64,000 bases of DNA from an uncultured Alphaproteobacteria bacterium. GTDB lineage: Bacteria; Pseudomonadota; Alphaproteobacteria; Rhizobiales; Beijerinckiaceae. This document shows, piece after piece, positions 32,264 to 53,311 of the stretch. The DNA is taken from contig CAWEAT010000011.1 of the NCBI GenBank assembly GCA_963806935.1, forward strand, positions 140,347-204,346. Reading direction: 5' to 3'. Position 1 is the first letter of the stretch; each line of letters opens with the position of its first letter. Below the pieces are notes generated by a model. That model ran no database searches. It was not told the origin of the DNA and was given only the letters and a program-made list of their open reading frames with translations. Both the position numbers and the translations under genes were made by a program.

Positions 32264-32769
32264 GGAGAGCTCCATCCTGAGTGAGGTTCGCAACGCCTCG
32301 ATCTCAGGACGGGGCTCTCCGTAGCGCCATCGCTATTCTATCCGCCTGCTACCCAGCCTCCCGGCTCACGCCACCCCGCGCAGCGGGGCCGGAGCGGAGC
32401 GACTTCGTGCTTTGTGCAGGTTTTTGGACGCCGGCGGGGCCGATCTCTGCGGGCGCTCGGACGGCCGGCGTCCAAAAAGCGCCAGGGCACGAAGTCGCGG
32501 TCAGCCGGGGCGGCGGCTGGGAGTCGAGCGCTATGGGGATTTCAGGGTGGCGGCGCATTCGTTGAAGGCGGGACACCGGGGCGACGCGACCCGAATGCCT
32601 GCATGTGGCGGCGGGCGAGGGAGAGGAAGAAGCGTTCCGGCAGGGTCTGAGGGGTATCGACGGGCGCCTGGCGGATGGATTGCCCGGAATCGGGTCGAGA
32701 GGGATCGCCGCCGGCGTGGAGCCAGTGCAAGGGAACGGCAAAGCGGCGGCGCTGACAGGCGGGTCTGGC

Positions 32770-33981: not shown

Positions 33982-33992
33982 GACCGGCGGCG

Positions 33993-34913: not shown

Positions 34914-35199
34914 GGAGAGCTCCATCCTGAGTGAGGTTCGCAACGCCTCGATCTCAGGACGGGGCTCTCCGTAGCGCCATCGCTATTCTATCCGCCTGCT
35001 ACCCAGCCTCCCGGCTCACGCCACCCCGCGCAGCGGGGCCGGAGCGGAGCGACTTCGTGCTTTGGCGCAACGGACGCCTTGAGCCGAAGTCCGCTTTGTT
35101 GCGCATCCCTTCCGTTGCAGGGACGGGCTGGATCGTCTGCAAACGGACGGGCTGGATCGTGTGCAAAGTGTGGAACTTTCGCGTTGGACGCTGGGCCAA

Positions 35200-35700: not shown

Positions 35701-35745
35701 AGCAATATATCCTTTTCGGAAGATAGCCGACTTGTAGTTGCAAAC

Positions 35746-37127
35746 TGAACTGGACCCCATTCGTGGGACCGCGGGGGGTTGGATTTAAGGTGTAATCTCG
35801 CCTGCCCTTGTCCTTCAATAATCAAGCCGCCTGTTGCTGCTTCTGCTTTTGCTGTGGGCATGTGGGCAACGCGTTTGCGTTGTCCAAGCGAAGCGGCATA
35901 TCCACAGCCCTCGCCGCCGCCTCGATTTTGTCCATGCCGGCCCGCCACACCGCCATCGGCATCTGGTTGTTCATCGCCTGGTGCGGGCGTCGAAAATTGT
36001 AAAAACTCATCCAGGAACCGATGCCGGCCCGCGCCTCGCGGCCATCGGCGTAGGCTTTCAGATGCACCTCTTCATACTTGATTGAGCGCCACAGCCGTTC
36101 GATGAAAATGTTGTCCATGAAGCGGCCGCGTCCGTCCATCGAAATTGCGCCGCCAGCCGCCGCGAGCCTGCCGGCGAAAGCCTCGGCGGTGAAAGTGGAG
36201 CCCTGATCGGTATTGAAAATCCGTTCCGAACCGAAGCATCGCCTCCTCCAGCGCCGCCGCGCAGAAGCTCGCATCGTTGGTGTTCGACAGCCGCCATGCC
36301 AGAACCGCCCGGCTTGCCCAGTCGATGATCGCCGCCAGATAGAGGAAGCCGCACGCCATCGGGATAAAGGTCACGTCGGCCGCCCACACGTGGTTCGGCT
36401 CGACAATCTTCAGGCCGCGCAGCAGGTAAGGGTATATCTTGTGCTCGGGCGCGGCTTTGCTCGTGCCAGGGCGTGGAACCAGCGCCTCGATCCCCATCAC
36501 CCGCATCAGCCGCCGCACGCGCTTGCGGTTGACTCCACGGCCTTTCTTGTTGAGTTCGAAGGTCATTCGCCGCGAGCCGTAGAACGGAAGTTCGAGATGC
36601 AGTTCGTCGATCCGGCGCATCACCGCCAGATCGTCCACGCTGGTGACGGGCTTAGGGCGGTAGACCCCCGAGCGCGCCACGCCCACAAGCGCGCATTGAC
36701 GGCGCACCGACAGGTCCTTGCCAGGCCGTTCGACCATCGCTCTTCGATCGGGCGCGCTCATCGCCCTGGCCTCCTGGCCAAGAAATCCCGTTCGACCGTC
36801 AGTTGGCCGATCTTGGCGTAAAGCTTGACCGTCTCGCGCTCGCGCTCCTCCTCGCCATCGCCCGAACCGCTCGCTCCTCGCGCGAACAGGCTCGCGACGT
36901 TGTCAAGAACCTGCTTCTTCCAGGCATAAATCTGGTTAGGATGCACCCCGTGCCGCTTCGCCAGTTCCGGAACCGTCGCATCCTCGCGCAGCGCCTCAAG
37001 CGCAATCTTCGCCTTGAACGCCGCATCAAACTTCTTGCGTGACTTCGTCATGTCTCGCTCCATCGGTTGCGACAGAGCAGGACATTTCACACCCTAGCCT
37101 ATGGTCCTAAATCCGGGGTCCAGCTCA
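35746..37127 (-). mobile_element. IS3-family element, copy 1 (1382 bp), orfB frameshifted
   Basis: IRs TGAACTGGACCCC / GGGGTCCAGCTCA, 3-bp TSD AAC; orfA 36758-37051 (HTH), orfB rve (WAADVT, NTDQGS, ERLWRSIKYE). Confidence 0.92.
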
Positions 37128-37339
37128 AACAGCGCGAGGAAACCAACGCGAGTTTTGCAGTTGCCCGCGCAGGCCGCGCATCTTCTGCAGAGTGCGAACA
37201 CAATAATCTCCAAGCTGTCCCGATGAATTAAGCAAATAACAGTCGCCGGCAGCGAAGACGAGAAGACGGTTGGTCCAGAGCGCGCAGCGCAGCAATGTGT
37301 GACAGGCGCCCAGAGGTCGAGAACCGATGGCACGCCGAG

Positions 37340-37435
37340 TGGCGAGAGCGGCCTTTCGCAGGCGGCCGCGGCTCGGTTGTTTGACACGACGCCGAAGACC
37401 GTCGCGAAGTGGATCGGGTGGTTTGAAGCCGAGGG
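37340..37435 (+). pseudogene. IS481-family N-terminal HTH remnant
   Basis: GLSQAAAARLFDTTPKTVAKWIGWFEAEG, cut by the IS256 end. Confidence 0.6.
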
Positions 37436-37703
37436 GGGAGTGTCAGGAATCTTGTGCGTGGGGCCATAATCGCACCGATGGAGGGCGAGAATGGCGATCA
37501 AGAAGGACACGTTGGATGATCTTCTGGCGGGGCGCGACCCGAAGGCTGTGTTTTCGAAGGACGGTCTTTTCGATGAGCTGAAGAAGGCTTTGGTGGAACG
37601 AGTGCTGAACGCTGAGCTGGACGACCATCTTGACCATGATGCAGCGGAGGGGTCGCGGAACCGTCGCAACGGCTATTCGAAGAAGACGGTCCTGACGGAG
37701 ACG
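37436..37703 (+). mobile_element. IS256-family 5' fragment
   Basis: GGGAGTGTCAGGAATCTTGTG end; MAIKKDTLDDLL...ERVLNAELDDHL...NRRNGYSKKTVLTE then truncated. Confidence 0.8.
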
Positions 37704-38013
37704 GCGGATCCCATTTCTCTACCCGCGGAAGCCATGACGGTGGCCCCCGCGGAATAGGTCGGCAAGCTCTGCATCGCGCAAGGTCCGCTTCGCGCGTTCG
37801 TCTGTGAAGCAATCTCTGGGAGAGCGTCCATGCGGCGTTGCCGTCCGAACAAAAGGAAACTGCGCAAAACCGACATTTCGGTGTCGTTTATTGCGCCTCC
37901 CTCTCCGATAGAATTTGGACGGCGGCTGCCGAAGTCTCCCTCGCCAATGGGTGGTGGATGACCCCGCGACGAAATGGGGGCAATCCTTTGCGCCGCAACT
38001 GAGGCTGAGCGCC

Positions 38014-38348
38014 ATGAGCAACAGCTCCTTCGAGAGCTCCGAACCACAACTTCAAGATCTTTTGGGGGAGCCGATTGTTCGCTTGATCATGCAGGCTGAC
38101 AACGTCGACGAGCGTAGGCTGCGTACCCTTATTGAGCAAACCGCGGCGCGCATAAGAAAATGGGGCGATGTCCCGCGCCTGGCAAAGGACTCCCAGGGGG
38201 ACAAGTCGACGCAATCGGATGACGGTTACCGCCTCGGCGTAGGGATCATGCTGCTCAACAGCCGAGGCAATATCTTTGTCGGCCAGCGAATCGACGTGAA
38301 TGAAGAGGCTTGGCAGATGCCGCAGGGCGGCGTTGAGGAAGGGGAAGC
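38014..38348 (+). pseudogene. RppH-like Nudix hydrolase with N-terminal extension, truncated by IS3
   Basis: [20 protein letters not shown]...[13 protein letters not shown] ends inside the Nudix box at the IS3 IR. Confidence 0.75.
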
Positions 38349-39730
38349 TGAACTGGACCCCATTCGTGGGACCGCGGGGGGTTGGATTTAAGGTGTAATC
38401 TCGCCTGCCCTTGTCCTTCAATAATCAAGCCGCTTGTTGCTGCTTCTGCTTTTGCTGTGGGCATGTGGGCAACGCGTTTGCGTTGTCCAAGCGAAGCGGC
38501 ATATCCACAGCCCTCGCCGCCGCCTCGATTTTGTCCATGCCGGCCCGCCACACCGCCATCGGCATCTGGTTGTTCATCGCCTGGTGCGGGCGTCGAAAAT
38601 TGTAAAAACTCATCCAGGAACCGATGCCGGCCCGCGCCTCGCGGCCATCGGCGTAGGCTTTCAGATGCACCTCTTCATACTTGATTGAGCGCCACAGCCG
38701 TTCGATGAAAATGTTGTCCATGAAGCGGCCGCGTCCGTCCATCGAAATTGCGACGCCAGCCGCCGCGAGCCTGCCGGCGAAAGCCTCGGCGGTGAAAGTG
38801 GAGCCCTGATCGGTATTGAAAATCCGTTCCGAACCGAAGCATCGCCTCCTCCAGCGCCGCCGCGCAGAAGCTCGCATCGTTGGTGTTCGACAGCCGCCAT
38901 GCCAGAACCGCCCGGCTTGCCCAGTCGATGATCGCCGCCAGATAGAGGAAGCCGCACGCCATCGGGATAAAGGTCACGTCGGCCGCCCACACGTGGTTCG
39001 GCTCGACAATCTTCAGGCCGCGCAGCAGGTAAGGGTATATCTTGTGCTCGGGCGCGGCTTTGCTCGTGCCAGGGCGTGGAACCAGCGCCTCGATCCCCAT
39101 CACCCGCATCAGCCGCCGCACGCGCTTGCGGTTGACTCCACGGCCTTTCTTGTTGAGTTCGAAGGTCATTCGCCGCGAGCCGTAGAACGGAAGTTCGAGA
39201 TGCAGTTCGTCGATCCGGCGCATCACCGCCAGATCGTCCACGCTGGTGACGGGCTTAGGGCGGTAGACCCCCGAGCGCGCCACGCCCACAAGCGCGCATT
39301 GACGGCGCACCGACAGGTCCTTGCCAGGCCGTTCGACCATCGCTCTTCGATCGGGCGCGCTCATCGCCCTGGCCTCCTGGCCAAGAAATCCCGTTCGACC
39401 GTCAGTTGGCCGATCTTGGCGTAAAGCTTGACCGTCTCGCGCTCGCGCTCCTCCTCGCCATCGCCCGAACCGCTCGCTCCTCGCGCGAACAGGCTCGCGA
39501 CGTTGTCAAGAACCTGCTTCTTCCAGGCATAAATCTGGTTAGGATGCACCCCGTGCCGCTTCGCCAGTTCCGGAACCGTCGCATCCTCGCGCAGCGCCTC
39601 AAGCGCAATCTTCGCCTTGAACGCCGCATCAAACTTCTTGCGTGACTTCGTCATGTCTCGCTCCATCGGTTGCGACAGAGCAGGACATTTCACACCCTAG
39701 CCTATGGTCCTAAATCCGGGGTCCAGCTCA
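38349..39730 (-). mobile_element. IS3-family element, copy 2 (1382 bp), no matching TSD
   Basis: Same IRs and ORFs as copy 1; flanks AGC versus TCG; differs from copy 1 at two positions seen. Confidence 0.92.
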
Positions 39731-39749: not shown

Positions 39750-40130
39750 TCAAGAAACTTGAGCGGCGCGGGAGGGTTTGACGTCGCAGAACGACCTATA
39801 GAGCACGTCGATAACGGCGCGCACCTTATCGTTGGCGATGCTGTAATAGATCGTCTTGCCGTCGCGGCGCGCGGCGACGAGGCCTTCGAGACGCAACCGC
39901 GCCAACTGCTGGGACACCGTCGACTGGCGCAACGATAGGAACTCTTCCAACTTGCCGACGGACTTTTCGCCCTCCAGCAAATTGCACAGAATTAGGAGCC
40001 GCGACTCATGGGCCAGCGCCTTGAGAAACTCGCTAGCTTCGCGGGCGCTCTCGGCCATCTGTTCGATGTCCATTGTGTGTTGCATCGGCTCGAGCGGCTT
40101 CGCGAGGGCCATGGGATGATCACCGTTCAT
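39750..40130 (-). CDS. ArsR/SmtB regulator, SqrR/BigR-like persulfide sensor
   Basis: LKALAHESRLLILCNL...VSQQLARLR.EGLV..RRDGKTIYY...YRSFC; Cys pair matches SqrR/BigR positions. Confidence 0.85.
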   Translation of the reverse strand: MNGDHPMALAKPLEPMQHTMDIEQMAESAREASEFLKALAHESRLLILCNLLEGEKSVGKLEEFLSLRQSTVSQQLARLRLEGLVAARRDGKTIYYSIANDKVRAVIDVLYRSFCDVKPSRAAQVS

Positions 40131-40212
40131 TTTCGTATATGAGAATATCCTACTGTCGATAAATCGGCAATCCTATGGAAGCCCCTGGCGCTCGATGGGG
40201 AAGCCCTCAAAC

Positions 40213-41364
40213 TCATCGGGCGGCAAGCAGCCACAGGAGCGGAACGACGAACATCATTGCCGTCGTGCTCAGCACAACCAACATGTGCCTCGGCCCGACG
40301 CGGAGAAGCGCTCCTAGCGACGTGTTCAAACCAAGGGCTGCGATCGCGATCAGCAGACCCCACCGCGACGCCTCGACCAGGGCGGACTTCACCGGCAGCG
40401 CAATGAGGTCGAGCGAGTTGATGACAACGAAAGCCAGGAACATGATAGCAAAGACGGGGACCGGAACCTTGGCGTTGTGCGAATCGCCGCCTTGCGAGGA
40501 GAACCACCAGCCGACCCCGAGCACCACAGGCAGCAACATGAAGACGCGGAACAACTTGACGATCGTCGCGACGTTTCCTGCGGTGTCGGAAACGGCATAA
40601 CCCGCGCCGACGACCTGAGCGACGTCGTGGATCGACGCGCCAAGGAATATGCCGGTTGTGCGCTGATCGAATCCGAGAGCCATGCAGATCGGCGGGTAGA
40701 CGACCATCGCGACAGTCGCCAGGATATTGACGGTGATGGCGACGAAAACGGTGTCGGATTCGCGGTCCTTATAATGGGGCAGAACGGAAGCTGCCGCCAA
40801 CGCGGCCGAAGCGCCGCAGACGGCCGTCGCGGCCCCCGCCAGGGCGCCATAAAGATCGCCGCGGCCGAACAGACGCGCGAACAGAACGCCGGAGACGAGA
40901 GTGACCGCCATCGCGACCACGACCATGACCGCCGTTCCGACGCCCAGGCCAATGATGTCGGCAAGAGCGATTTTCAGGCCAAACGACGCGATCGCCCAGC
41001 GCAGGATTTTCTTGATGGCGAAGGTCGTGCCGACGGTGAACGCCGGCCGGTCCGCGACCGGATGCAGGACCACGCCGATCAGAAGCGCGATGACCGGCGC
41101 CGTGATCGTGATTTTCCTGCCGACGATCGCTAACGCGAACTTAGTCGTCATCGGCTCGATCTGGACGGCCAGAAGCGCGAGCGCGCCCGCCAAAATCAGC
41201 CCGGGCGCGAGTTTGGCGAGGAAGCCGAAGGAGTCCGCCGCGCTGATCCAACCGACAGACCGGCTCGCCGTGGCTTGCTTTAATCGGATCCCACCGGCAG
41301 GGTCGGGAAGGCTGTCGCGCATCGGCTTCGTTCGTTCTGACGACATTCGAATTTTGACCCCCAA
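40213..41364 (-). CDS. YeiH/UPF0324 putative sulfate exporter family membrane protein
   Basis: ATAVCGASAA, GASIHDVAQVVGAG, ATIVKLFRV, multiple TM helices; start uncertain. Confidence 0.85.
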   Translation of the reverse strand: MGVKIRMSSERTKPMRDSLPDPAGGIRLKQATASRSVGWISAADSFGFLAKLAPGLILAGALALLAVQIEPMTTKFALAIVGRKITITAPVIALLIGVVLHPVADRPAFTVGTTFAIKKILRWAIASFGLKIALADIIGLGVGTAVMVVVAMAVTLVSGVLFARLFGRGDLYGALAGAATAVCGASAALAAASVLPHYKDRESDTVFVAITVNILATVAMVVYPPICMALGFDQRTTGIFLGASIHDVAQVVGAGYAVSDTAGNVATIVKLFRVFMLLPVVLGVGWWFSSQGGDSHNAKVPVPVFAIMFLAFVVINSLDLIALPVKSALVEASRWGLLIAIAALGLNTSLGALLRVGPRHMLVVLSTTAMMFVVPLLWLLAAR

Positions 41365-42035
41365 CGAGGACGCCGACCAAGCCGGGCGACCGCTGCGACG
41401 CTACGGTCCGTTCATATAGTCACATTCGATTATTAGTATTTTTTGCTTGATGCGTCTACCCCTGAGAAAACCAGAGCATTCAAGACGCCGCAGTTCTCGG
41501 CGCCCCCGACTGGCGGCGGATCGTCCCGACGAGCAAATGTCTTACGCGCCACATCGATCGACCTGATCGAAGGCCGTCCGGAGGATTTGCTGACATGGTC
41601 TGATGCCGCATCCCTTGTCAGGTTGGCCGCGCGACAAGTCGGCGCGATGCGGAATCCTCGCCGCTGATCTTCTTTCGATCCCCCGAGCCTGCAACGATCA
41701 GGCACCTTGCGCGGCCGGCCTATGCGGGCGTTCCGCTCACCCATCGCGACCATGCGCTGGCCCGCGTCTTCCCGAAATATGGAATACGCGTCTCACGACC
41801 TCGAGAGAACAGAAGGGTTTTTACGGCCTCTTCCTCCTGGATCCCTCGAAGCCCGGCGGACGGATCGCCAGCCTACGGAAAAGTCGGAGAAGGACGGCTA
41901 CGGTTAGGGCGCGCGCAGAAATTTTCACGCGACATTTCATCACAGGGGCTTGACCAGAGGTTGTAACGATATATTCGACTATGATAATGCAATCAGGAAA
42001 GTCCGCCAACGGTGCGACCGAGGGAGGGTTATGTC

Positions 42036-42536
42036 ATGTCGTCCGTCGAATCCGCCAACGCCAAGACGATGACGATTATCGTCACGAAAGGCTCGCTCGA
42101 CTGGGCGTATCCGCCCTTCATCCTTGCGACAACGGCTGCCGCGATGGGCGTCGACGTCACCATGTTCTTCACCTTTTATGGTTTGCCCCTGCTGCTCAAG
42201 AAGCTCGATCTGCAGGTGACGCCGCTCGGGAATCCGGCGATGAAAATGCCGATGATGGGCATGCACATGGCGATGCCGAACCTCGTCGGCATGTTGCCCG
42301 GAGTGACCGCGGGCGCGACGACAATGATGAAGAATCTCATCGCAAGGAAAGGCGTCGCCTCGATCGAGGATCTGCGCGAAGCCGCCATCGAATCAGACGT
42401 CAAGATGATCGCCTGCCAAATGACGATGGACCTGTTTGAATACAAGCTCGAAGACATGATCGAGGGACCGACCCTCGGCGGCGCCGCAACCTACCTGGAA
42501 AATGCGCTGAAGTCCGACATCAATCTCTTCATTTGA
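42036..42536 (+). CDS. DsrE/DsrF/DrsH-like (DsrE2/3-type) sulfurtransferase
   Basis: TKGSLDWAYPPFILATTAAAMG...FFTFYGL...IACQMTMDLF...GGAATYL. Confidence 0.88.
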   Translation: MSSVESANAKTMTIIVTKGSLDWAYPPFILATTAAAMGVDVTMFFTFYGLPLLLKKLDLQVTPLGNPAMKMPMMGMHMAMPNLVGMLPGVTAGATTMMKNLIARKGVASIEDLREAAIESDVKMIACQMTMDLFEYKLEDMIEGPTLGGAATYLENALKSDINLFI

Positions 42537-42589
42537 TCGCCGCAGGGTCCGTGGAGCCGCGGGACCAAAACATCGGAAGAAAGGATCTC

Positions 42590-42817
42590 ATGGCTGAACA
42601 TCTTCTCGACGCGAAGGGGCTCAACTGCCCGCTGCCGATTCTCAAAGCCAAAAAGGCGCTAAAGGATTTGGCCACCGGCGAAATGCTGCGCATTCTGGCT
42701 ACCGATCCCGGCGCCGCCGCGGATTTCCAGGCTTTTTGCCGCACGACCGGCAACGAGCTGGTGGAGTCGAAGCAGGACGGCGGCGCCTATAGTTTTCTTA
42801 TCAAGCGACTGGCGTAA
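42590..42817 (+). CDS. tusA: TusA-family sulfur carrier
   Basis: LDAKGLNCPLPILK, ATDPG..ADF.AFC. Confidence 0.92.
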   Translation: MAEHLLDAKGLNCPLPILKAKKALKDLATGEMLRILATDPGAAADFQAFCRTTGNELVESKQDGGAYSFLIKRLA

Positions 42818-42897: not shown

Positions 42898-43677
42898 TTG
42901 AAAACGACGGAAATCGGGCGACGTTCGGCTCTTTTGTCGATGGGGCTGGGCCTGGCGGCCGGCGCATCGAGTTTCGTCACCGAAGCGAGCGCTGGCGAGA
43001 CGATGACGCTGCCCAGCAGCGCCGACACGCTCGCGGAGCTTGCCGCGCGCCTCGCCAAAGCGCCGCGACGACGCGACTTCAAGACCGTGCCGATGATCCT
43101 CACCTCTCCCGACGCGTGGGACCATGAGGCGATCGGCGAGGTGCTCGCCTATCGCGGCGCACCGAAGCAGGTGTTTGACAACGTCGACATTGCGGGCCCC
43201 TGGCTCAATCTGATGCGCAATTCGTCGAACGCTCAGGTGTGGGCGTTCCAGCATCCGAATTTCCTCTGCGTTTCCGCGACCCACGCAACCGCGCATCTCG
43301 CCCTGCTCGATCAGGCGATGTGGGACAAGTATCAGCTCGTGAAGCTCGCGAAAATCGACCGCAACACGTTTATCGTGGAGCAGAAAGCGGCCGAAGCGGA
43401 CGCCAGCGACTTCCAAAATCCGGATGGCGTGTTCTCCGGACACAACAATTCCATTCCCGCGCTGCAACGGCGCGGCGTCGTCTTCATGGGTTGCCATAAC
43501 TCGATCTGGGAAGTGACCGAGAAGCTGATGGGCGCGCACGTCAATCCCGACAAGCTGTCGCACGAAGCGATGGCGGCCGAGCTTACCAATCATCTTATCC
43601 CCGGGGTCGTGCTGACTCCGGGAATGGTCGGAACGTTGCCCGAGTTGGCGACGGCCGGCTTCTCCTTCGCGAAATAA
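42898..43677 (+). CDS. Tat-exported DsrE-like protein of unknown function
   Basis: GRRSALL twin-arginine signal; GVVFMGCHNS Cys motif resembling the DsrE fold. Confidence 0.65.
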   Translation: MKTTEIGRRSALLSMGLGLAAGASSFVTEASAGETMTLPSSADTLAELAARLAKAPRRRDFKTVPMILTSPDAWDHEAIGEVLAYRGAPKQVFDNVDIAGPWLNLMRNSSNAQVWAFQHPNFLCVSATHATAHLALLDQAMWDKYQLVKLAKIDRNTFIVEQKAAEADASDFQNPDGVFSGHNNSIPALQRRGVVFMGCHNSIWEVTEKLMGAHVNPDKLSHEAMAAELTNHLIPGVVLTPGMVGTLPELATAGFSFAK

Positions 43678-43687
43678 GAGCGACGCG

Positions 43688-44683
43688 ATGCTAGGTGCTT
43701 GCGGGCGGGCGGTATTCGCCGCGCTGTTGGGACTTTCCGTCGGCGTCGCCGGGTCGGCGCACGCTGGGACCGCGCCCACGCCAGTGGAAAGGCCCGACCT
43801 CTATCCGCCATGGCGACACGGCGAAAATAGCGACGTCGCCGACAAGGGTCTTGAGTTTACCGAGCCGGAGATCGACGATCTGGCCGATTTCCATGGCGAT
43901 CCGATGGATCCCAGGCTCTCGCTCTTCGTCGGCGGCAATTACTTCTTCGCCATGGCGCCGCTGGTGCGCAAGTTCGAGGAACTGCATCCAGAATTCAAAG
44001 GCAGGATTTACTGGGAAACGATCCCGCCAGGCTTGCTTGTCAAGCAGATTCAGTCCGGCGGCACAATCACTTCAGGCAACATGACCTGGACGGTGAAGGC
44101 CGACGCCTATTTCGCCGGCTTCAACAAGGTCAAACAACTGGTGTCCGACGGACTGCTGATCGGTCCACCCACGCCTTACGTCACGAATACGCTGACGATC
44201 ATGATCCCGAAGGCCAATCCGGCGCATGTCACGGGGCTTGCCGATCTCGGGAAGCCGGACGTCAAGCTTGTCATGCCCAATCCGGCCTACGAGGGCATCG
44301 CACGTCAGATCAAGGCGGCGCTGACCAAGGCCGGCGGCGAGTCGCTCGCGAAAGCCGTCTACGACGACAAGGTCGCGAACGGGACGGCGATACTCACCCA
44401 TATCCACCACCGCCAGACGCCGCTCTATCTCATGCTGGGCCGCGCCGACGCGGGCGTCACATGGCAATCCGAAGCGGTCTTTCAGGAAGAGGCGGGTCAC
44501 CCGATCTCGCACGTCGACATCCCGGACGCGCAAAACAACACAGCGATCTATGCGGGCGCCGTTCTCGCCAGCGCCCCGCATCCCGACGCGGCCAAGCTGT
44601 GGCTCGATTTCATCCGCTCGGCAGACGGCCTGAAGATTTTCGAGCACTACGGGTTCAAGCCGTATCAGGGGAATGGCGGCTAA
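43688..44683 (+). CDS. ModA-like periplasmic oxyanion-binding protein
   Basis: Signal peptide, NTLTIMIPKANP..VTGLADL..PDV..MPNP, GRADAGVTWQSEA, IFEHYGF. Confidence 0.8.
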   Translation: MLGACGRAVFAALLGLSVGVAGSAHAGTAPTPVERPDLYPPWRHGENSDVADKGLEFTEPEIDDLADFHGDPMDPRLSLFVGGNYFFAMAPLVRKFEELHPEFKGRIYWETIPPGLLVKQIQSGGTITSGNMTWTVKADAYFAGFNKVKQLVSDGLLIGPPTPYVTNTLTIMIPKANPAHVTGLADLGKPDVKLVMPNPAYEGIARQIKAALTKAGGESLAKAVYDDKVANGTAILTHIHHRQTPLYLMLGRADAGVTWQSEAVFQEEAGHPISHVDIPDAQNNTAIYAGAVLASAPHPDAAKLWLDFIRSADGLKIFEHYGFKPYQGNGG

Positions 44684-44739: not shown

Positions 44740-45309
44740 ATGTCGTCGATGGCTGAGCCGATCGTCCGAAGGTCCGCGGCGGCGCGGCGGATCGACTTCT
44801 CGCCCTATCTCGTTGGCGTCGGGCTCGGCGTTCTCAGCTGGATCGCCTTCGCCGTCGCGAAGGACCCGCTCGGCGTCACCACGGCGATGTCGCGCGTCGC
44901 GCAGCCAATCGCGGCGATTTTTATTGCGCCGGAAGCGGCGGCGAAAAACGCCTATTGGGCGCCGATGCCCTTCTCTTGGGATTATGGCGTCCTGTTCCTG
45001 GTCGGCGCCCTTGGCGGCGCCCTCTTCGGCTCATTGATGGCGGGGACGTCCCGCATCGAACTCGTGCCGCGGTTCTGGCGCGAACGCTTCGGCGGCTCGG
45101 TCCCGAAGCGCTTCGCGGCCGCATTCCTCGCCGGCGCCGCGATCATGTATGGCGCAAGGCTCGCAGGCGGCTGCAGCAGCGGTCACGGCCTTTCAGGCGG
45201 GATGCAGCTGGCGCTCTCGAGCTGGGTGTTCCTCCTCGTGATGGTTGCGAGCGCGCTGGCTGCCTCGGCGCTGGTGTTTGGACGTGGACCGACAGGAGCG
45301 CGCCGATAA
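44740..45309 (+). CDS. YeeE/YedE sulfur-compound transporter subunit 1
   Basis: PLGVTT, FLVGALGGA, YGARLAGGCSSGHGLSG. Confidence 0.85.
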   Translation: MSSMAEPIVRRSAAARRIDFSPYLVGVGLGVLSWIAFAVAKDPLGVTTAMSRVAQPIAAIFIAPEAAAKNAYWAPMPFSWDYGVLFLVGALGGALFGSLMAGTSRIELVPRFWRERFGGSVPKRFAAAFLAGAAIMYGARLAGGCSSGHGLSGGMQLALSSWVFLLVMVASALAASALVFGRGPTGARR

Positions 45310-45848: not shown

Positions 45849-45882
45849 CAGAGCGGTCAAAGAACCGGGCGAAGGGGGACCC

Positions 45883-47916
45883 ATGAAGCGGCTCGTTGTC
45901 GGCGGCATGGCGGTTGTTGTGGGTCTCGGAGCCGCGCTTTGGGTCCTGACGCCGCCGTCTGCGCCGACGTCGATGCTAGCGCCTCCAGCGCTTGATGATG
46001 CGACCGTCGCGCGCGGGGCCTATCTCGCGCGGCTCGGCGATTGCGGCGCCTGCCACACCAGCGAAGGCGGCAAGGAGATGGCCGGCGGCCTCGCATTTGA
46101 CACCCCGATCGGCCGCATCTATTCGACCAACATCACGCCCGATCCGAAGTCTGGCATAGGCGGATACACGCTCGCCCAATTTGAGGGGGCCCTCCGGCGC
46201 GGCGTCAACGCCAATGGCGCAAATGTGTATCCCGCGATGCCCTACCTGTCATTCGCCAAGATTAACGACGACGACGTTAAGGCGCTCTACGCGTACTTCA
46301 TGAAGGGGGTGGAGCCGGTCGAGCAGGCGAACAAGCCCAACGAAATGAGGTTCCCCTTCAACATCCGACTCGGGCTTGGACTCTGGAGGACCGCCTTTCT
46401 GAACAATCGTCGATTCGCTGAAGATTCGTCCAAGGACGAGCAGTGGAATCGTGGCGCTTACATCGTCGAGGGGCTCGGCCATTGCGGCGCTTGCCACACG
46501 CCGCGCGGCATGGGCATGCAGGAGACGGCAACGAGCGAGGATGGCAAGTCCTACCTCTCGGGTTCGACCATCGCGCCGTGGCGCGCAGTCAGTCTTCGCA
46601 ATTTGTGGAGCGAAAAGGAGGTTGTCCAATTCTTGAAAACCGGCGCCAATGCTCATGCCGCCGCCTACGGAAACATGACTGAAGTCGTGCACGACAGTAC
46701 GCAGTATTATACCGACGCCGACCTCGCCGCGGTCGCACACTTTCTGAAATCTCTCTCGACCGACGAAGCCGCGCCGACCATCGCGGCAGAAGCGATTCCG
46801 GAAACCCTCTTTACGACTCGTGGAGGGCTCGGCTACGACCAGTTTTGTTCCTCGTGCCATCAGCGGGACGGGCGCGGCGCGCCCGGCGTCTTCCCGCCGC
46901 TCGCGGGCAATGATTCCGTACTGTCCGACGATCCGATCTCCGTCATTCATGTCGTGCTGACCGGCTGGACGGAGGCGGCGACGCAGTTTTCGAAGCACGC
47001 ATTCGCTATGCCCGAATACAGTTCGCTTAGCGACGCGGAGCTTGCGGAAATCCTGACCTTCGTGCGCACGAGTTGGGGCAACAAAGGCGAGGCGGTCACC
47101 GCCGCGCAGATCAAGGAGCAGCGCGACGCGCTTGCCCCCGTGTCGACCGCGCCAGCGAAATTCTCGGCGGCGCGCTTCGCCGAGATGCTCGCGGCGCCGA
47201 ACGCCGATCAACTCATCCTCGGCATGCGCCTCATGACGGAAACGAAGACCCTCCTGCCCGATCATGTCGGCAACGAGATGAGCTGCGCCAGCTGCCATCT
47301 GGACGGCGGCACCGTCGCTATGGGCTCGCCCTTCAACGGCGTCGCGGCTCTGTTTCCGATGAACAACCCTCGGGCAGGACGGGTCATTTCTCTCGAGGAG
47401 CGGCTCAACGGCTGCTTCTTGCGCTCGATGAACGGGACACGGCTTGCCGACGATTCCAAGGACATGAAGGCCATGATTGCGTTCGTGGCGTGGATGAAGG
47501 GCGATGCGGCCGCGAACGGCAAGATCCCGGGGCGCGGGATCGGCGCGGTGAACGCCGGGCTCATCCCCGATCCGGTTCGCGGCAAAGCGCTGTTCGAGAC
47601 GAACTGCGCCGTCTGCCACGGATCTGATGGGCAAGGCATGAAATCCAGCGACGGCGGCTGGCTCTTCCCGCCGCTTTGGGGCAACGCCTCATTCAACATC
47701 GGCGCTGGAATCGCGCGGACGTTCACCGCCGCGTCCTTTGTCAAGGCGAACATGCCGATCGCGCACACGACCAAATATCCGCAGGGTCAGGGCGGCCTCT
47801 CCGATCAGGACGTTGTCGACATCGCTGAGTACTTCACCCATCAACCGCGACCGGATTTCCCCGCCAAGGTCAGCGACTGGCCGAAAGGGGGAAAGCCTAA
47901 GGATGCAAGATATTGA
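45883..47916 (+). CDS. Five-heme c-type cytochrome: membrane-anchored triheme domain fused to a TsdA-like thiosulfate dehydrogenase
   Basis: CxxCH x5 (CGACH, CGACH, CSSCH, CASCH, CAVCH); TsdA signatures [27 protein letters not shown]. Confidence 0.85.
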
Positions 47917-47924
47917 CGATCGAC

Positions 47925-48015
47925 GCCCTCCGCAGTGCTGCGATGTTGCCGCATAGGCCGTGCGACCGCCCTTGAACACGGCCGAGCCGGCGACCAGAGC
48001 CTCGGCCCCGTTGGC
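47925..48015 (-). pseudogene. C-terminal fragment of ribulose-phosphate 3-epimerase (cbbE/rpe)
   Basis: [20 protein letters not shown](ANIAALR with one indel). Confidence 0.65.
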
Positions 48016-48204
48016 GATCATATAGGCGATTGCCTTGTCGGCGGCTTCACCTTCCATTTTGCCGAAGCCCATCGTGCCGACCTGGATGCCCGAGGTGCCC
48101 TGCAGTCGCGCCATCTTGGCGAGGACAAACCCGGTGTAGCCGCGCTTCGACCGCGGCGAGGTCACGGCTCCGTGGCCGGCGTGGTGATAGTGCAGATACT
48201 GCTT
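48016..48204 (-). pseudogene. cbbM: Internal fragment of form II RuBisCO (cbbM)
   Basis: [59 protein letters not shown] matches the form II segment as recalled ([53 protein letters not shown]). Confidence 0.85.
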
Positions 48205-48209: not shown

Positions 48210-48992
48210 TCAGAGGCCCCGCGCAGACACGTAGACGCCGACGGCCACGACCGCCGAGCCGAACACAATTCGCAACGCGCCTCTCCGCTTCGCAAGAGCC
48301 CCGGCAAGTCTCACTCCGACCGCACCGCCTGCGAGGCCGCCCGCGATAAACAGCGCCGCGATCCGCCAGTCGACCAGACCGGAGACGGCGTAGCTGGCGG
48401 CAGTCGTCGCGCCGAAGGCGGCGACCGAAACGAGCGAGGTGCCGATCGCCGCGACCATCGGCATGCCGGTCGCCGCGATCAGGCCCGGCACGATCAGGAA
48501 TCCGCCGCCAATACCGAAGAATCCGGCGAGGAGCCCCACCCCGAACCCCATCGCGATCAACGGAGGGAGGAGACGTCCCGCTGTCGCCGAGGTAAGCTCG
48601 ACGTCGGCATGCTTGATCTTGCGCGGCCCTATCAGCATGACCGCTCCGACGACGATCATGAGCAGCCCGAACAAGAGCAGCAGACGTTGGCCGTCGACCA
48701 TTTTGGCGACGCTGGAACCGAAGAATGCGCCGAGGACCCCGGCTGTGGAGAAGACGCCCGCGCACGGCCATTTGACATTGCCCGAGCGCGCATGAGCCAG
48801 AAGATTGGCGATCGCGCTGATGCTGACCGCGATGGCGCTGGTCCCGATCGCGACATGAGGCGAAGGAACCCCGACGCCGTATACCAGCAACGGAACTGCA
48901 AGAACCGATCCGCCGCCGCCGACGAGGCCGAGAACCCCGCCGACGAGGCCTCCGACGGCCACCGTTGTAAAATCCGAGATCGACAACACCAT
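48210..48992 (-). CDS. TauE/SafE sulfite exporter family protein
   Basis: Repeated GxxxGxxGxGGG motifs ([14 protein letters not shown]; [14 protein letters not shown]), AIGTS. Confidence 0.88.
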
Positions 48993-49155
48993 CGATCCTC
49001 GCAAGGTCACAACTGGAGCTTGCAAATCAGAATCGCCCGAACCCGGTTCCGGCGCTCTCGCACTGAAAGCCCTCGAGGTGTTGCGACACCGTCTTGATGT
49101 CTTTGACCTTGCTGCGGCACGTGCGAACAATAGACCAAGGAGGACAAGTGCTCGA

Positions 49156-50445
49156 TCACGTGGTCTCGAATTCGACGGCCTTGAGCTTCTCGATCCCGAG
49201 CAGGTTGAGAGCCAGAGACTCGTAGAAAGGCTCGCTTTCGCCCTTGCGCATCTTGCGCAGGAAGTATTTCTCGAAGCCGATCTTGGCAGCGTGAACCCAC
49301 TTCCCCGAAGAGGACCAGTTGACGTTGCGCGGCGGAATCTGGGGCTGGGCGACGAAGGCGATACCCGAATCGCCGAAGTCGGCGAGGCACACCGCGTTCC
49401 AGGTGCCCTGGAACCTGGGCTTGGCGCCCCGCAGGATCTGCCCGAGGTTTCGAGCGGTCGCCGTCACCATCAATTCGATCATGAAGCCAGTCTTTGGCAC
49501 GCCGCAAGGCACCGGGGTGGGGCCGACCGGCGGGATCGCGACGCAGACGCCGACAGAAAAGACGTTCCGGAATGTTGGGTTCTGCTGGTGCTCGTCGACG
49601 ATAACGAAACCCCGCGGATTGACAAGTCCCTCCACGCCGCGCAGCGGCGCGATGCCGCGGAACGCGGGCAGGATCATCGAGAAGCCGAAGGGCAGTTCGC
49701 GGGTTGCCTTGACGGTGCCGTCATCGCCGACCTCCTCGACCGTCATCTTGCCCTGCTCGACTTTCTTGATGCGGGCGCTCGTGATCCACTTGATGTGATG
49801 ATCGCGCATCTCGCTTTCGAGCAGGCCTTTCGTATCTCCGACCCCGTCGAGGCCGAGGTGGCCGATGTAGGGTTCGGCGGTGACAAAGGTCATCGGGACC
49901 TTGTCGCGGATTTTGCGGCGGCGCAGTTCGGTCTCGAGAATGAACATGAACTCGTAAGCAGGTCCAAAGCAGGACGCGCCCTGCGCGGCGCCGATCACGA
50001 CCGGACCGGGGTCCTTGCAGAACGCCTCGAAATTGTCCGCCGCCTTCTCGGCATGGTCGATGTGGCAGATCGAGTTCGTGAAGCCGTCGGGGCCGAGCCC
50101 TTCGACTTCATCGAACGCCAGTTCGGGCCCTGTCGCGATGATCAGGTAATCGTACCGGATCGACGAACCGTCCGCCGTCTCGACCGTGTTCTCCTTTGGC
50201 GACGCTTTCGCCACCGCGCTCGGCTTGAAGCCAATTCCGCGCTTGGCGAATGTCCGCGCGAGATCAACCTGAATCAACTCGCGCGTTCTCCATCCGACTG
50301 GAACCCACGGATTGGACGGAACGAAATGATAAAGCGGATCCTTGGTGACGACAGTCAGCCTGTCCTCAGGGCGCATCTGATCCTTCATCTCGTAGGCCAT
50401 GATCGCGCCGCTGAGCCCGGCGCCCATGATCACGATGTCAGCCAT
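49156..50445 (-). CDS. sqr: Sulfide:quinone oxidoreductase, type I (SqrA-like)
   Basis: GAGLSG FAD site, FVPSNPWV, SICH, ASCFGPAYE, VPKTGFMIE, AVCLADFG; close to R. capsulatus SQR as recalled. Confidence 0.93.
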   Translation of the reverse strand: MADIVIMGAGLSGAIMAYEMKDQMRPEDRLTVVTKDPLYHFVPSNPWVPVGWRTRELIQVDLARTFAKRGIGFKPSAVAKASPKENTVETADGSSIRYDYLIIATGPELAFDEVEGLGPDGFTNSICHIDHAEKAADNFEAFCKDPGPVVIGAAQGASCFGPAYEFMFILETELRRRKIRDKVPMTFVTAEPYIGHLGLDGVGDTKGLLESEMRDHHIKWITSARIKKVEQGKMTVEEVGDDGTVKATRELPFGFSMILPAFRGIAPLRGVEGLVNPRGFVIVDEHQQNPTFRNVFSVGVCVAIPPVGPTPVPCGVPKTGFMIELMVTATARNLGQILRGAKPRFQGTWNAVCLADFGDSGIAFVAQPQIPPRNVNWSSSGKWVHAAKIGFEKYFLRKMRKGESEPFYESLALNLLGIEKLKAVEFETT

Positions 50446-51769: not shown

Positions 51770-53311
51770 GTGATCGACATGGAGTTACTGAGCGTCATCC
51801 GACGCTGGCACTGCCGGGACCATTTCTCGATCCGAGAGATATCGCGGCGCACGGGGCTGTCGAGGAACACAGTCCGCAAATATCTGCGCTCGGACACCGT
51901 TGAACCGAGGTTCAACATCCCTGACCGCCCGAGCAAGCTGGACCCTTACGCCGACAAGCTGTCGCATATGCTGCGGCAGGAGGCGGGGAAGTCCCGCAAG
52001 CAGAAGCGGACGACCAAGCAATTGCACGCCGATCTGGCCGCCCTCGGTTACGACGGCTCCTACAATCGCGTGGCGGCCTTCGCTCGCGACTGGAAGGCCG
52101 CTCGGCAACAGGAACAGAAGACGTGCGGCCGCGGCGTGTTCGTGCCGCTGGCGTTTTTGCCGGGCGAGGCGTTCCAGTTCGACTGGTCGGAAGATTGGGC
52201 GATCATTGCCGGCGAGCGAACCAAGCTGCAGGTCGCTCACTTCAAACTGTCCTGCAGCCGCGCCTTCTTCCTCCGGGCCTACCCGCAGCAGACCCACGAG
52301 ATGCTGTTCGACGCCCATAACCACGCCTTCCGCGTGCTGGGCGGCGTTCCCCGGCGAGGCATCTACGACAACATGCGCACTGCGGTCGACAAAGTCGGGC
52401 GCGGCAAGAACCGCCAGGTCAACGCACGGTTCGCAGCCATGGTCAGCCACTTCCTGTTCGAGGCGGAGTTCTGCAATCCGGCGTCCGGTTGGGAGAAGGG
52501 GCAGATCGAGAAGAACGTCCAGGACGCCCGCCATCGGCTCTGGCAGCCCATGCCCAGCTTCCCCTCCCTGGCGGCGCTGAACGACTGGCTGGAGATGCGA
52601 TGCAGGGAGCTGTGGGAGCAGACGCCGCACGCCTCGCATCCTGGCGCGATTGCCGACGCCTGGGCCGAAGAGGTCCAGCATCTGATGCAGCCTTCGCGCC
52701 CGTTCGACGGCTTCGTCGAATACGCCAAGCGCGTGTCGCCGACGTGCCTGGTCCATCTGGACCGCAATCGCTATAGCGTGCCGGCCTCCTTCGCCAATCG
52801 TCCAGTCAGCGTACGAGTTTATCCCGAACGCATCGTTGTCGCCGCCGAGGGACAAGTCGTCTGCGAACATCGCCGCGTTTTTGCCCGCTCCCACCAACGC
52901 AAGAGCACGACCACCGTTTTCGACTGGCGGCACTATCTGGCGGTCATTCAGCGCAAACCGGGCGCACTCCGCAACGGCGCGCCGTTCGCCGAACTCCCGC
53001 CTGCCTTCCGTGCCTTGCAACAGCGCATGCTCAAGACGCCGGGCGGCGACCGCGAGATGGTCGAGATTCTGGCTCTCGTCCTCCAGCATGACGAGCAGGC
53101 CGTGCTCACTGCCGTCGAACTGGCTCTGGAGGCCGGCGTGCCGACCAAGACGCACATTCTGAACCTGCTGCACCGATTGATCGACGGCAAGCCGATCGAC
53201 CCACCAGCCGTGAAGCCGCCTAATGCTTTGACCCTCACCACCGAACCGCAGGCCAACGTCGAACGCTACGATGCGCTGCGCAAGGCTCGAGAGGCGCGCC
53301 ATGCGTCATAA
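51770..53311 (+). CDS. istA: IS21 transposase IstA
   Basis: [22 protein letters not shown]. Confidence 0.92.

What the first reader, a model, noticed from the sequence alone, without database searches (positions are those of the whole stretch)
45883..47916. Triheme dehydrogenase-type cytochrome fused to TsdA: possible alternative thiosulfate:quinone oxidoreductase
The C-terminal diheme part keeps the TsdA catalytic Cys (NGCF) and the NMP ligand. The N-terminal three hemes, behind a membrane anchor, resemble the cytochrome subunit of gluconate/alcohol dehydrogenases, which passes electrons to ubiquinone. The characterised TsdBA fusion has a diheme TsdB and four hemes in total. A five-heme version could link thiosulfate/tetrathionate turnover directly to the quinone pool, a functional analogue of DoxDA.
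Basis: partly seen in the sequence, partly recalled or inferred. Interest (0 to 1): 0.75.

Follow-up and report, generated by a model that had tools for sequence, protein, structure and literature searches.

The report
Five-haem thiosulfate dehydrogenase fusion protein
This gene encodes a real five-haem protein that joins a thiosulfate-oxidising enzyme (TsdA) to a three-haem module which, in sugar and alcohol dehydrogenases, passes electrons to membrane quinone; the design is widespread, I found no lab study of it, and whether it really reaches quinone is still unproven.

Summary
Window 45883-47916 (+) encodes a 677-aa protein with five CXXCH motifs.

- **N-terminal part:** residues 37-437 match the trihaem cytochrome subunit of membrane-bound alcohol, glucose and fructose dehydrogenases (8gy2_B, E 7e-104).
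- **C-terminal part:** residues 441-665 match TsdA (E 4e-50). The Cys haem ligand and the Asn-Met site are invariant in the family.
- **Distribution:** this is not a one-off. Thousands of ~680-aa homologues exist, and the fusion arose once.
- **Literature:** I found no experimental paper on this architecture.

The quinone link remains an inference.

For it:
- Every characterised relative of the trihaem module reduces ubiquinone.
- This clade adds an N-terminal membrane anchor.
- The gene follows a conserved pair (a Tat-exported TSD protein plus a binding protein) that in other lineages is followed by doxDA.

Against it:
- The same slot is filled by tsdB-tsdA in two lineages.
- Most homologues have ordinary signal peptides.
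- Thiosulfate-to-ubiquinone transfer is about 100 mV uphill at pH 7, so it is feasible only near pH 5.

My odds are about 0.5 that quinone is the acceptor and 0.3 that cytochrome c, HiPIP or an oxidase is. I class it as a new variant of a known kind, of moderate to high interest.

The parts
45883..47916 (+). Gene for the 677-aa five-haem trihaem-TsdA fusion (P0001)
   Evidence: Translation; PDB and Pfam matches; full-length homologues
45871..45879 (+). Shine-Dalgarno-like GAAGGGGGA just upstream of the ATG
   Evidence: Read directly from the sequence
45883..45948 (+). aa 1-22: N-terminal hydrophobic helix, a likely uncleaved signal anchor in this clade
   Evidence: Only window with KD19 above 1.6; AF2 helix 2-20; no AXA site; 22 of 119 homologues share this type
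45949..45996 (+). aa 23-38: Pro-rich tether ([16 protein letters not shown])
   Evidence: Sequence; same feature in close homologues
45997..47142 (+). aa 39-420: AdhB-type trihaem cytochrome c module (haems 1c, 2c, 3c)
   Evidence: 8gy2_B E 7e-104; Foldseek TM 0.72 normalised to the target
46042..46056 (+). CGACH, haem 1 (aa 54-58); distal Met119 is invariant
46345..46407 (+). aa 155-175: conserved amphipathic segment ([21 protein letters not shown]) between the haem-1 and haem-2 domains. It corresponds to the loop missing from the ADH cytochrome chain in entry 9x0q. Candidate membrane or quinone-facing element.
   Evidence: Alignments; P158, R162, W168 and F172 invariant; low pLDDT at 153-159
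46483..46497 (+). CGACH, haem 2 (aa 201-205); distal Met265 is invariant
46846..46860 (+). CSSCH, haem 3 (aa 322-326); distal Met376 is invariant. This is the domain next to TsdA, and the only cytochrome domain kept in the natural three-haem versions.
   Evidence: in BcGDH the third haem domain is the first electron acceptor (PMC9727119)
47143..47217 (+). aa 421-445: conserved interdomain junction (P430, R431, L436 and L444 nearly invariant)
   Evidence: pLDDT 94-96 for aa 431-450
47203..47877 (+). aa 441-665: TsdA catalytic dihaem domain
   Evidence: 4wq7/4wqc E about 1e-50; Foldseek TM 0.83 normalised to the target
47284..47298 (+). CASCH, active-site haem (aa 468-472)
   Evidence: Aligned with AvTsdA CRHCH
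47413..47415 (+). Cys511 (LNGCF), the predicted sixth ligand of the active-site haem and the catalytic residue
   Evidence: Aligned with AvTsdA IGDCF; invariant
47605..47619 (+). CAVCH, the electron-transfer haem of TsdA (aa 575-579)
   Evidence: Aligned with AvTsdA CLACH
47749..47754 (+). Asn623-Met624 (KANMP); Met is the predicted haem ligand, and Asn replaces AvTsdA Lys208
   Evidence: invariant; the same Asn-Met occurs in CjTsdA (PMC5146829) and in MpTsdBA
42898..43677 (+). Context: Tat-exported TSD-type 'thiosulfate dehydrogenase' (AFE_0042 type) with a DsrE-like fold and an invariant Cys199
   Evidence: NF052225, 385 bits against a cut-off of 300; AF2 plus Foldseek matches to DsrE-like proteins
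43688..44683 (+). Context: orphan periplasmic oxyanion-binding protein (SBP_bac_11)
   Evidence: weak ModA, Sbp and CysP matches
44740..45309 (+). Context: YeeE/YedE half, PmpA-like (matches the C-terminal half of the Sulf_transp profile)
   Evidence: PmpA/PmpB naming from PMC11582611
45306..45848 (+). [quoted passage not shown]
49156..50445 (-). Context: sulfide:quinone reductase-like flavoprotein; it lies directly after the fusion gene in related loci
48210..49130 (-). Context: TauE/SafE sulfite exporter family protein
42012..42817 (+). Context: DsrE2 and TusA sulfur carriers
39750..41364 (-). Context: ArsR/BigR-type repressor and YeiH-type putative exporter

Best explanation
The gene encodes a periplasm-facing five-haem thiosulfate dehydrogenase. 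The C-terminal TsdA unit couples two thiosulfate molecules to tetrathionate at a His/Cys haem (Cys511). Electrons leave through the TsdA His/Met haem (Met624), enter haem 3c of the fused AdhB-type module, and pass to haem 2c and then haem 1c.

In this clade the protein is held at the cytoplasmic membrane by an N-terminal signal anchor and a Pro-rich tether. The final acceptor is most likely ubiquinone. That would make the protein a single-polypeptide, haem-only thiosulfate:quinone oxidoreductase, a functional analogue of DoxDA. It would work in a mildly acidic periplasm as part of an IS-bounded sulfide/thiosulfate oxidation island (TSD, binding protein, PmpAB, SQR, DsrE2, TusA, TauE).

Shown here: the architecture, all ten axial ligands, a single origin of the fusion, and the conserved operon. 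Inferred: the order of electron flow, the membrane location and the acceptor. My confidence is about 0.9 that it is a TsdA-type enzyme with a built-in trihaem wire, and about 0.5 for the full statement including quinone.
For: - **Homology of both halves:** E 7e-104 and 4e-50. Folds match at target-normalised TM 0.72 (8gy2_B) and 0.83 (4wq7).
- **Ligands:** five CXXCH, Met119/265/376, Cys511 and Asn623-Met624 are invariant in 56 homologues.
- **Junction:** it is conserved and confidently modelled, and overall pTM is 0.76. This points to a fixed geometry for internal electron transfer.
- **Entry point:** in BcGDH the third haem domain is the first electron acceptor (PMC9727119). Here TsdA is attached right after that domain, and the natural three-haem versions keep only that domain plus TsdA.
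- **Family behaviour:** the solved relatives are all subunits of membrane-bound dehydrogenases (PDB titles). The alcohol and aldehyde dehydrogenases reduce membrane ubiquinone (PMC12724360).
- **Conserved segment:** the fusion keeps the family-wide amphipathic segment at aa 155-175, which is absent from the ADH cytochrome chain in 9x0q.
- **Anchor:** this clade has a TM-like N-terminal helix.
- **Gene context:** tsd-sbp is followed by doxDA in L028, L030, L031 and L036. It is followed by pmpAB plus this fusion in the window, L001-L008, L011 and L035.
- **Own genome:** no DoxD and no SoxB above cut-off.
- **Other lineages:** the fusion gene sits without a nearby partner cytochrome gene (L021, L022).
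Against: - **Thermodynamics:** the tetrathionate/thiosulfate couple is +198 mV (PMC9562282 abstract). Ubiquinone is about +100 mV at pH 7 (textbook value). Thiosulfate-to-UQ transfer is therefore about 100 mV uphill at neutral pH and roughly even only near pH 5.
- **Ambiguous slot:** the tsd-sbp slot is filled by tsdB-tsdA, a cytochrome c route, in L029 and L032.
- **No general anchor:** most homologues have ordinary signal peptides. The C-terminal hydrophobic region named for FDH subunit C (9jqa title) is not matched here; TsdA follows the part that aligns with FDH subunit C.
- **Cytochrome c route exists:** the genome has a bc1 complex.
- **Not tested:** no quinone-site residues could be checked, and the model carries no haems, so no haem-haem distances were obtained.
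Confidence: 0.5

Rival explanations
1. The chemistry is the same, but the trihaem module is only a longer TsdB-like relay. It hands electrons to a high-potential periplasmic or membrane acceptor (cytochrome c, HiPIP, or a cbb3/aa3 oxidase directly), not to quinone.
For: - A downhill acceptor fits the +198 mV couple. CjTsdA haem 2 is at +172 mV (PMC6879331).
- tsdB-tsdA occupies the same operon slot in L029 and L032.
- Most family members have cleavable-looking signal peptides and no TM helix.
- The model superposes on TsdBA 5lo9 over about 488 columns, target-normalised TM 0.53.
- Natural three-haem versions with their own signal peptides look like soluble proteins.
- A bc1 complex is present in the genome.
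Against: - The three-haem versions show that one cytochrome domain is enough for a soluble relay. Yet most members keep the whole AdhB-type module, including the haem-1 domain and the amphipathic segment.
- I know of no characterised member of this trihaem family that serves a soluble acceptor (my own knowledge, not tested here).
- This clade adds a membrane anchor.
Confidence: 0.3
2. The physiological direction is the reverse. The protein is a quinol:tetrathionate reductase, with the trihaem module acting as a quinol dehydrogenase (as CymA or NapC do) and TsdA as the terminal reductase.
For: - Quinol-to-tetrathionate transfer is downhill at neutral pH.
- TsdA enzymes work in both directions, and CjTsdA (Asn-Met at haem 2, as here) is a tetrathionate reductase in vivo.
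- In other lineages the fusion sits next to a TtrS/TtrR-like sensor pair (L022).
- In a Geobacter MAG it sits next to rhodanese plus a ttrBCA-like Mo enzyme (L010). Geobacter uses menaquinone (my own knowledge), which thiosulfate could not reduce.
Against: - In this window and its relatives the operon partners are oxidative: TSD, SQR, DsrE2/TusA, PmpAB and TauE.
- MpTsdBA also has Asn-Met, so that motif does not indicate direction.
- TtrRS also activates the thiosulfate-oxidising tsdBA in V. parahaemolyticus (PMC11293645), so a neighbouring TtrSR says nothing about direction.
Confidence: 0.12
3. The fusion is mainly the electron sink for the neighbouring TSD protein. TSD has a DsrE-like fold and no predicted redox cofactor, and it handles thiosulfate or tetrathionate. 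DoxDA, TsdBA or the five-haem fusion are interchangeable exits for this TSD-SBP module.
For: - TSD of A. ferrooxidans forms tetrathionate but reduces neither ubiquinone nor horse cytochrome c, so its acceptor is unknown (PMC6335251).
- TSD here is an NF052225 equivalog with a DsrE-like predicted fold and an invariant Cys199.
- tsd or tsd-sbp is followed by one of three redox enzymes in 16 of the 17 distinct loci I examined, counting the window.
Against: - The fusion occurs without TSD in other lineages (L010, L021, L022).
- It keeps a complete TsdA active site, so it does not need TSD to act on thiosulfate.
- The Foldseek E-values for the DsrE-like fold are weak (6e-3 to 3e-2).
Confidence: 0.08

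Closest known systems
TsdA, the dihaem thiosulfate dehydrogenase/tetrathionate reductase (A. vinosum 4wq7/4v2k; C. jejuni TsdA)
   Same: The C-terminal 225 residues align end to end (E about 1e-50, about 37% identity, target-normalised TM 0.83). Both CXXCH motifs, the Cys ligand and the Met ligand are kept. Asn precedes Met, as in CjTsdA.
   Different: TsdA is a soluble protein of about 250-300 aa that needs a separate acceptor. Here it is the C-terminal third of a 677-aa protein with three extra haems and, in this clade, an N-terminal anchor.
TsdB-TsdA fusion of Marichromatium purpuratum (5lo9), a tetrahaem protein
   Same: It shares the idea of fusing TsdA to its electron-accepting cytochrome on the N-terminal side. 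The TsdA part matches (E 1e-34) and also has AANMP.
   Different: The N-terminal partner there is a dihaem TsdB. Its sequence does not match the trihaem module (the TsdB part of 5lo9 gives no significant alignment). Total haems: four against five.
Trihaem cytochrome c subunits of membrane-bound dehydrogenases (ADH subunit II 8gy2_B; FDH subunit C 7w2j_C; GDH beta 8hdd_B; ALDH 8gy3_A)
   Same: Full-length homology (44% identity to 8gy2_B). Three CXXCH plus three Met ligands. The amphipathic segment between the haem-1 and haem-2 domains is conserved. The catalytic partner sits at the haem-3 end.
   Different: The catalytic partner is fused rather than a separate PQQ, FAD or Mo subunit, and it is itself a c-type cytochrome. 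The FDH-type C-terminal hydrophobic region is not matched; TsdA follows the aligned part.
DoxDA thiosulfate:quinone oxidoreductase (TQO)
   Same: The proposed overall reaction is the same. DoxDA holds the same operon slot after tsd-sbp in other lineages (L028, L031; also after tsd alone in L030 and L036).
   Different: There is no sequence or fold relationship. DoxDA is an integral membrane protein and not a c-type cytochrome (the haem statement is from my own knowledge). This is an analogy only.

Membership tests
TsdA (SoxA/TsdA dihaem cytochrome family) | Two class-I cytochrome c domains with CXXCH, matching the family profile | tested here: met
   PF21342 scores 47.2 bits against a cut-off of 27; AvTsdA E about 1e-50 over 225 residues
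TsdA (SoxA/TsdA dihaem cytochrome family) | Cys as sixth ligand of the active-site haem (Cys96 in AvTsdA) | tested here: met
   Cys511 aligns with the Cys of AvTsdA IGDCF and is invariant in 56 homologues. Actual ligation is not testable here.
TsdA (SoxA/TsdA dihaem cytochrome family) | Strictly conserved Met ligand of haem 2 (Met209 in Av, Met255 in Cj) | tested here: met
   Met624 aligns with it and is invariant. PMC5146829 states that this Met is conserved in all TsdA sequences.
TsdA (SoxA/TsdA dihaem cytochrome family) | Thiosulfate oxidation or tetrathionate reduction activity | not testable with these tools
   Needs an enzyme assay
AdhB-type trihaem cytochrome c subunit of membrane-bound dehydrogenases | Three CXXCH with Met distal ligands in a three-domain fold | tested here: met
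   E 7e-104 to 8gy2_B; target-normalised TM 0.72; Met119/265/376 invariant
AdhB-type trihaem cytochrome c subunit of membrane-bound dehydrogenases | Works as a subunit of a separate PQQ, FAD or Mo catalytic subunit | tested here: not met
   No such gene lies in the operon. The catalytic unit is the fused TsdA.
AdhB-type trihaem cytochrome c subunit of membrane-bound dehydrogenases | Membrane association and ubiquinone reduction | not testable with these tools
   Only indirect signs: an N-terminal TM-like helix in this clade and the conserved amphipathic segment. The FDH-type C-terminal hydrophobic region is not matched.
TsdBA fusion (M. purpuratum type) | N-terminal dihaem TsdB domain, four haems in total | tested here: not met
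   Five CXXCH. The N-terminal part matches AdhB-type proteins, not the TsdB part of 5lo9.
DoxDA thiosulfate:quinone oxidoreductase | DoxD and DoxA domains | tested here: not met
   No DoxD or DoxA match in the protein or in the genome. The resemblance is functional analogy only.

The most novel reading that the evidence does not exclude
The five-haem fusion is a haem-only, single-polypeptide thiosulfate:quinone oxidoreductase (reversible to quinol:tetrathionate reductase). It would be the third interchangeable electron exit, beside DoxDA and TsdBA, of a conserved periplasmic TSD-SBP thiosulfate module. Its fused trihaem domain would then be a portable 'periplasm-to-quinone' entry port. The same role could apply to the closest stand-alone relative, which sits next to an MtrAB/PioAB-like porin-cytochrome pair (L024).
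Probability: 0.4. Interest if true: 0.75.

Novelty: new variant of a known kind. Interest (0 to 1): 0.6.

Why it matters
TsdA enzymes are widespread, but how their electrons enter respiration is known only for TsdB and HiPIP-type partners. Quinone coupling of thiosulfate oxidation is known only for the unrelated DoxDA.

A TsdA with a built-in dehydrogenase-type trihaem module would be a second, independent solution. It would change the energy yield assigned to thiosulfate/tetrathionate turnover in many soil, peat and mine-water bacteria. It would also affect metagenome annotation, because these genes are currently called plain 'tsdA'.

The tsd-sbp-X pattern found here also gives a testable lead on the missing electron acceptor of the Acidithiobacillus-type TSD.

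Tried and rejected
- **Literature:** four full-text searches for a description of the architecture (TsdA with triheme, pentaheme, five haem, or ADH cytochrome subunit) found nothing relevant. Kurth et al. 2016 (TsdB/TsdBA) is not held, so an earlier mention cannot be excluded. H. denitrificans TsdA is described as a dihaem protein, so it is not this fusion. The architecture of E. flavus TsdA could not be determined from the paper.
- **Asn-Met as a marker of direction:** rejected. It occurs in the reductase-biased CjTsdA and also in MpTsdBA.
- **TtrS/TtrR adjacency as a marker of direction:** rejected. TtrRS also induces the thiosulfate-oxidising tsdBA.
- **Respiratory chain of the host:** a bc1 complex is present, so this does not discriminate.
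- **Haem-haem distances:** model coordinates are not exposed and the model has no haems.
- **Quinone-site residues of ADH and FDH:** the structural papers are not in the library. PMC9727119 gave only the point about the haem-3 entry.
- **Genome-contig scan:** with a single protein as query it found only close relatives.
Full report
**1.

Window 45883-47916 (+) is an open frame of 677 codons. Its ATG follows a purine-rich GAAGGGGGA and lies 35 nt after the stop of the upstream gene. The longer ORF that starts at 45715 would overlap that upstream gene.

The protein (P0001) has five CXXCH motifs, at residues 54, 201, 322, 468 and 575.

Against solved structures:
- Residues 37-437 match the cytochrome c subunit of Gluconobacter alcohol dehydrogenase (8gy2_B, E 7e-104), glucose dehydrogenase beta (8hdd_B), fructose dehydrogenase subunit C (7w2j_C) and the aldehyde dehydrogenase cytochrome (8gy3_A).
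- Residues 441-665 match Allochromatium vinosum TsdA (E 4e-50 to 2e-49) and the TsdA part of Marichromatium TsdBA (5lo9, E 1e-34).

The Pfam SoxA/TsdA domain scores above its cut-off.

Residue by residue, LNGCF aligns with AvTsdA IGDCF, which carries the Cys haem ligand. KANMP aligns with KHKMP (Lys208-Met209).

**2. A real and large family with a single origin**

A word-indexed search returned 7,985 significant proteins among 8,000 scored candidates. The best 120 are almost all 661-698 aa long, at least 55% identical, and share the same Pfam pattern. Sources name them 'thiosulfate dehydrogenase' or 'c-type cytochrome'. Named hosts include Roseiarcus fermentans, Rhodoblastus, Xanthobacter agilis, Sulfuriferula and Rhodoferax, and one comes from a mine-drainage metagenome. 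Of 121 proteins, 119 have five CXXCH.

In an alignment of 56 of them the following are invariant: all five CXXCH, three Met residues (119, 265, 376; the expected distal ligands of haems 1-3), Cys511 and Asn623-Met624. The junction between the two halves is conserved as well.

The family is tight. At 50% clustering only one other representative covers the full length. It is also sparse: 3 of 401 evenly drawn genomes of the phylum carry it.

Shorter natural versions with their own signal peptides exist:
- three haems (the haem-3 domain plus TsdA);
- four haems.

In a tree of the TsdA domain, all fused forms make one clade (SH-aLRT 99) nested among stand-alone dihaem TsdAs. The three-haem forms fall inside the five-haem clade. 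So a whole trihaem gene was fused to tsdA once, and some lineages later lost the first two haem domains.

**3. Structure**

An AlphaFold2 model (pLDDT 73.7, pTM 0.76) matches 8gy2_B and 7w2j_C (target-normalised TM 0.72 and 0.71) and AvTsdA (TM 0.83). It also superposes loosely on TsdBA (TM 0.53 over about 488 columns).

The junction at aa 431-450 is modelled with pLDDT 94-96. Together with its conservation, this suggests a fixed interdomain geometry.

The model has no haems and its coordinates are not exposed, so haem-haem distances were not obtained.

**4. Probable direction of the internal wire**

In Burkholderia GDH the third haem domain is the first electron acceptor from the catalytic subunit (PMC9727119). 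Here TsdA is attached directly after that domain, and the truncated natural forms keep only that domain.

The likely path in the oxidative direction is: His/Cys haem, then TsdA haem 2, then haem 3c, 2c and 1c. This is an inference.

**5. Membrane anchor**

The only TM-like stretch is residues 4-22 (KD19 2.38). It is followed by [16 protein letters not shown] with no AXA site. About 22 of 119 homologues, the window's closest relatives, share this type. At least 64 have classic signal-peptide-like N-termini.

The C-terminal hydrophobic region named in the title of FDH entry 9jqa is not matched. TsdA follows the part that aligns with FDH subunit C.

The fusion does keep a family-wide amphipathic segment (aa 155-175; P158, R162, W168 and F172 invariant). 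This segment is conserved in stand-alone trihaem cytochromes too. It corresponds to a loop that is absent from the ADH cytochrome chain in entry 9x0q (alignment). Its role as a membrane or quinone element is my inference.

**6. Gene context**

The gene lies in an IS-bounded block:
- a BigR/ArsR-type repressor and YeiH;
- DsrE2 and TusA;
- a Tat-exported 259-aa protein;
- an orphan SBP_bac_11 binding protein;
- two YeeE halves (PmpA-like and PmpB-like);
- the fusion;
- TauE and an SQR-like flavoprotein.

In nine related alphaproteobacterial loci the order is conserved: Tat protein, SBP, PmpA, PmpB, fusion, usually followed by SQR, DsrE2 and TusA.

The Tat protein is an equivalog of NF052225 'thiosulfate dehydrogenase' (385 bits against a cut-off of 300). 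By my reading this is the Acidithiobacillus ferrooxidans AFE_0042 type. That enzyme forms tetrathionate but reduces neither ubiquinone nor horse cytochrome c, and it lies in a tsd-sbp-doxDA-rhd cluster (PMC6335251). Its predicted fold is DsrE-like with an invariant Cys199, although the Foldseek E-values are weak.

**7. The tsd-sbp-X pattern**

I followed TSD homologues into other genomes. The gene after tsd, or after tsd-sbp, was:

| X | Loci |
|---|---|
| doxDA | L028 (G003), L030, L031 (Methylovirgula MAG), L036 (beside a bo3-type oxidase operon) |
| tsdB plus tsdA | L029 (Noviherbaspirillum), L032 (G572) |
| pmpAB plus the five-haem fusion | the window, L001-L008, L011, L035 (frameshifted there) |
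| nothing relevant | L037 |

The window's genome has no DoxD and no SoxB above cut-off, so the fusion is its only recognisable haem or quinone-linked thiosulfate oxidase.

This pattern supports an oxidative, tetrathionate-forming role here. It shows that the fusion is interchangeable with DoxDA, but equally with TsdBA. So it does not settle the acceptor.

**8. Context in other lineages**

- The fusion has no sulfur or cytochrome genes nearby in a Sulfuriferula MAG (L021).
- It is next to a TtrS/TtrR-like pair (L022).
- It is followed by rhodanese and a ttrBCA-like Mo enzyme in a Geobacter MAG (L010).

TtrRS also activates the thiosulfate-oxidising tsdBA in Vibrio parahaemolyticus (PMC11293645). 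These contexts therefore do not fix the direction.

The closest stand-alone trihaem cytochrome (P0126, 54% identical) sits beside an MtrAB/PioAB-like pair and small cytochromes, with no dehydrogenase gene. That hints at a general role as an entry port from the periplasm to the membrane.

**9. Energetics**

- The tetrathionate/thiosulfate couple is +198 mV (PMC9562282) and does not depend on pH.
- Ubiquinone is about +100 mV at pH 7 and rises about 59 mV per pH unit as pH falls (textbook values).
- Thiosulfate-to-UQ transfer therefore costs about +17 to +21 kJ per pair of electrons at pH 7. It is about even near pH 5.
- Close named carriers come from acid-tolerant groups (Rhodoblastus acidophilus, Roseiarcus, Methylovirgula-type clusters, a mine-drainage metagenome). 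That they are acid-tolerant is my own knowledge.
- DoxDA, which faces the same thermodynamic problem, sits in the same slot in such organisms.
- At neutral pH, or with menaquinone, a quinone-linked enzyme could run only as a tetrathionate reductase.
- CjTsdA haem 2 (His/Met, with Asn before the Met as here) is at +172 mV, and the active-site haem is at -185 mV (PMC6879331).

**10. Verdict**

The protein is a TsdA-type enzyme with a built-in AdhB-type trihaem wire (about 0.9). That its acceptor is ubiquinone is the best single reading (about 0.5), ahead of a cytochrome c, HiPIP or oxidase acceptor (about 0.3).

It is a member of the TsdA family by every sequence criterion tested. It is not a TsdBA-type fusion and is unrelated to DoxDA.

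I found no experimental study of it, but key subscription papers were not readable. Earlier notes of this scan on other genomes reached a similar reading. I treated those notes as leads only. One of them, on the Tat-protein/binding-protein pair near doxDA, prompted the neighbourhood test above.

Noticed in passing
window 42898-44683; loci L028-L032, L035-L037: A Tat-exported TSD-type 'thiosulfate dehydrogenase' (NF052225 equivalog, DsrE-like predicted fold, invariant Cys199) is usually paired with an orphan SBP_bac_11 binding protein. It is followed by one of three redox enzymes in different lineages: DoxDA, TsdB+TsdA or the five-haem fusion. This may point to the unknown electron acceptor of TSD, or to a thiosulfonate-carrier role for it.
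   Followed up: partly
window 29763-35062: Two identical tandem copies (2,650-nt period) of a unit that encodes an IS91-family Y2 transposase and a phage-type integrase.
   Followed up: partly
window 35742-39424: Two copies (99-100% identical, 2,603 nt apart) of an IS3-like element (HTH_21/rve) lie just upstream of the sulfur block. An IS21-like istA lies at 51770-53311 downstream. The 39.7-50.5 kb sulfur module is therefore IS-bounded and probably mobile.
   Followed up: partly
L024 6001-7311: The closest stand-alone relative of the trihaem module (54% identity) has no dehydrogenase partner. It sits beside an MtrB/PioB porin, an MtrA-like multihaem protein, and monohaem and dihaem cytochromes. 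This looks like an iron-oxidation or extracellular electron-transfer cluster.
   Followed up: no
L010 9001-16786: In a Geobacter MAG the five-haem fusion is followed by a rhodanese and a TtrB/NrfD/molybdopterin (ttrBCA- or psr-like) set. A sigma-54 two-component system lies upstream.
   Followed up: no
L035 9048-10965: In this relative the five-haem gene is split between two reading frames near residue 150. This is either an assembly error or a pseudogene. Genes resembling dsrAB (NIR_SIR) and dsrE lie nearby.
   Followed up: no
G000 C4:95081-96322 and C9:32357-33511: The genome has two further AdhB-type trihaem cytochrome paralogues. One lies inside a 1,048-aa open frame, which suggests another fusion.
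   Followed up: no
window 47925-48204: An earlier first-reader note claims that a RuBisCO form II/Rpe gene fossil lies between the fusion gene and tauE. I did not check it.
   Followed up: no
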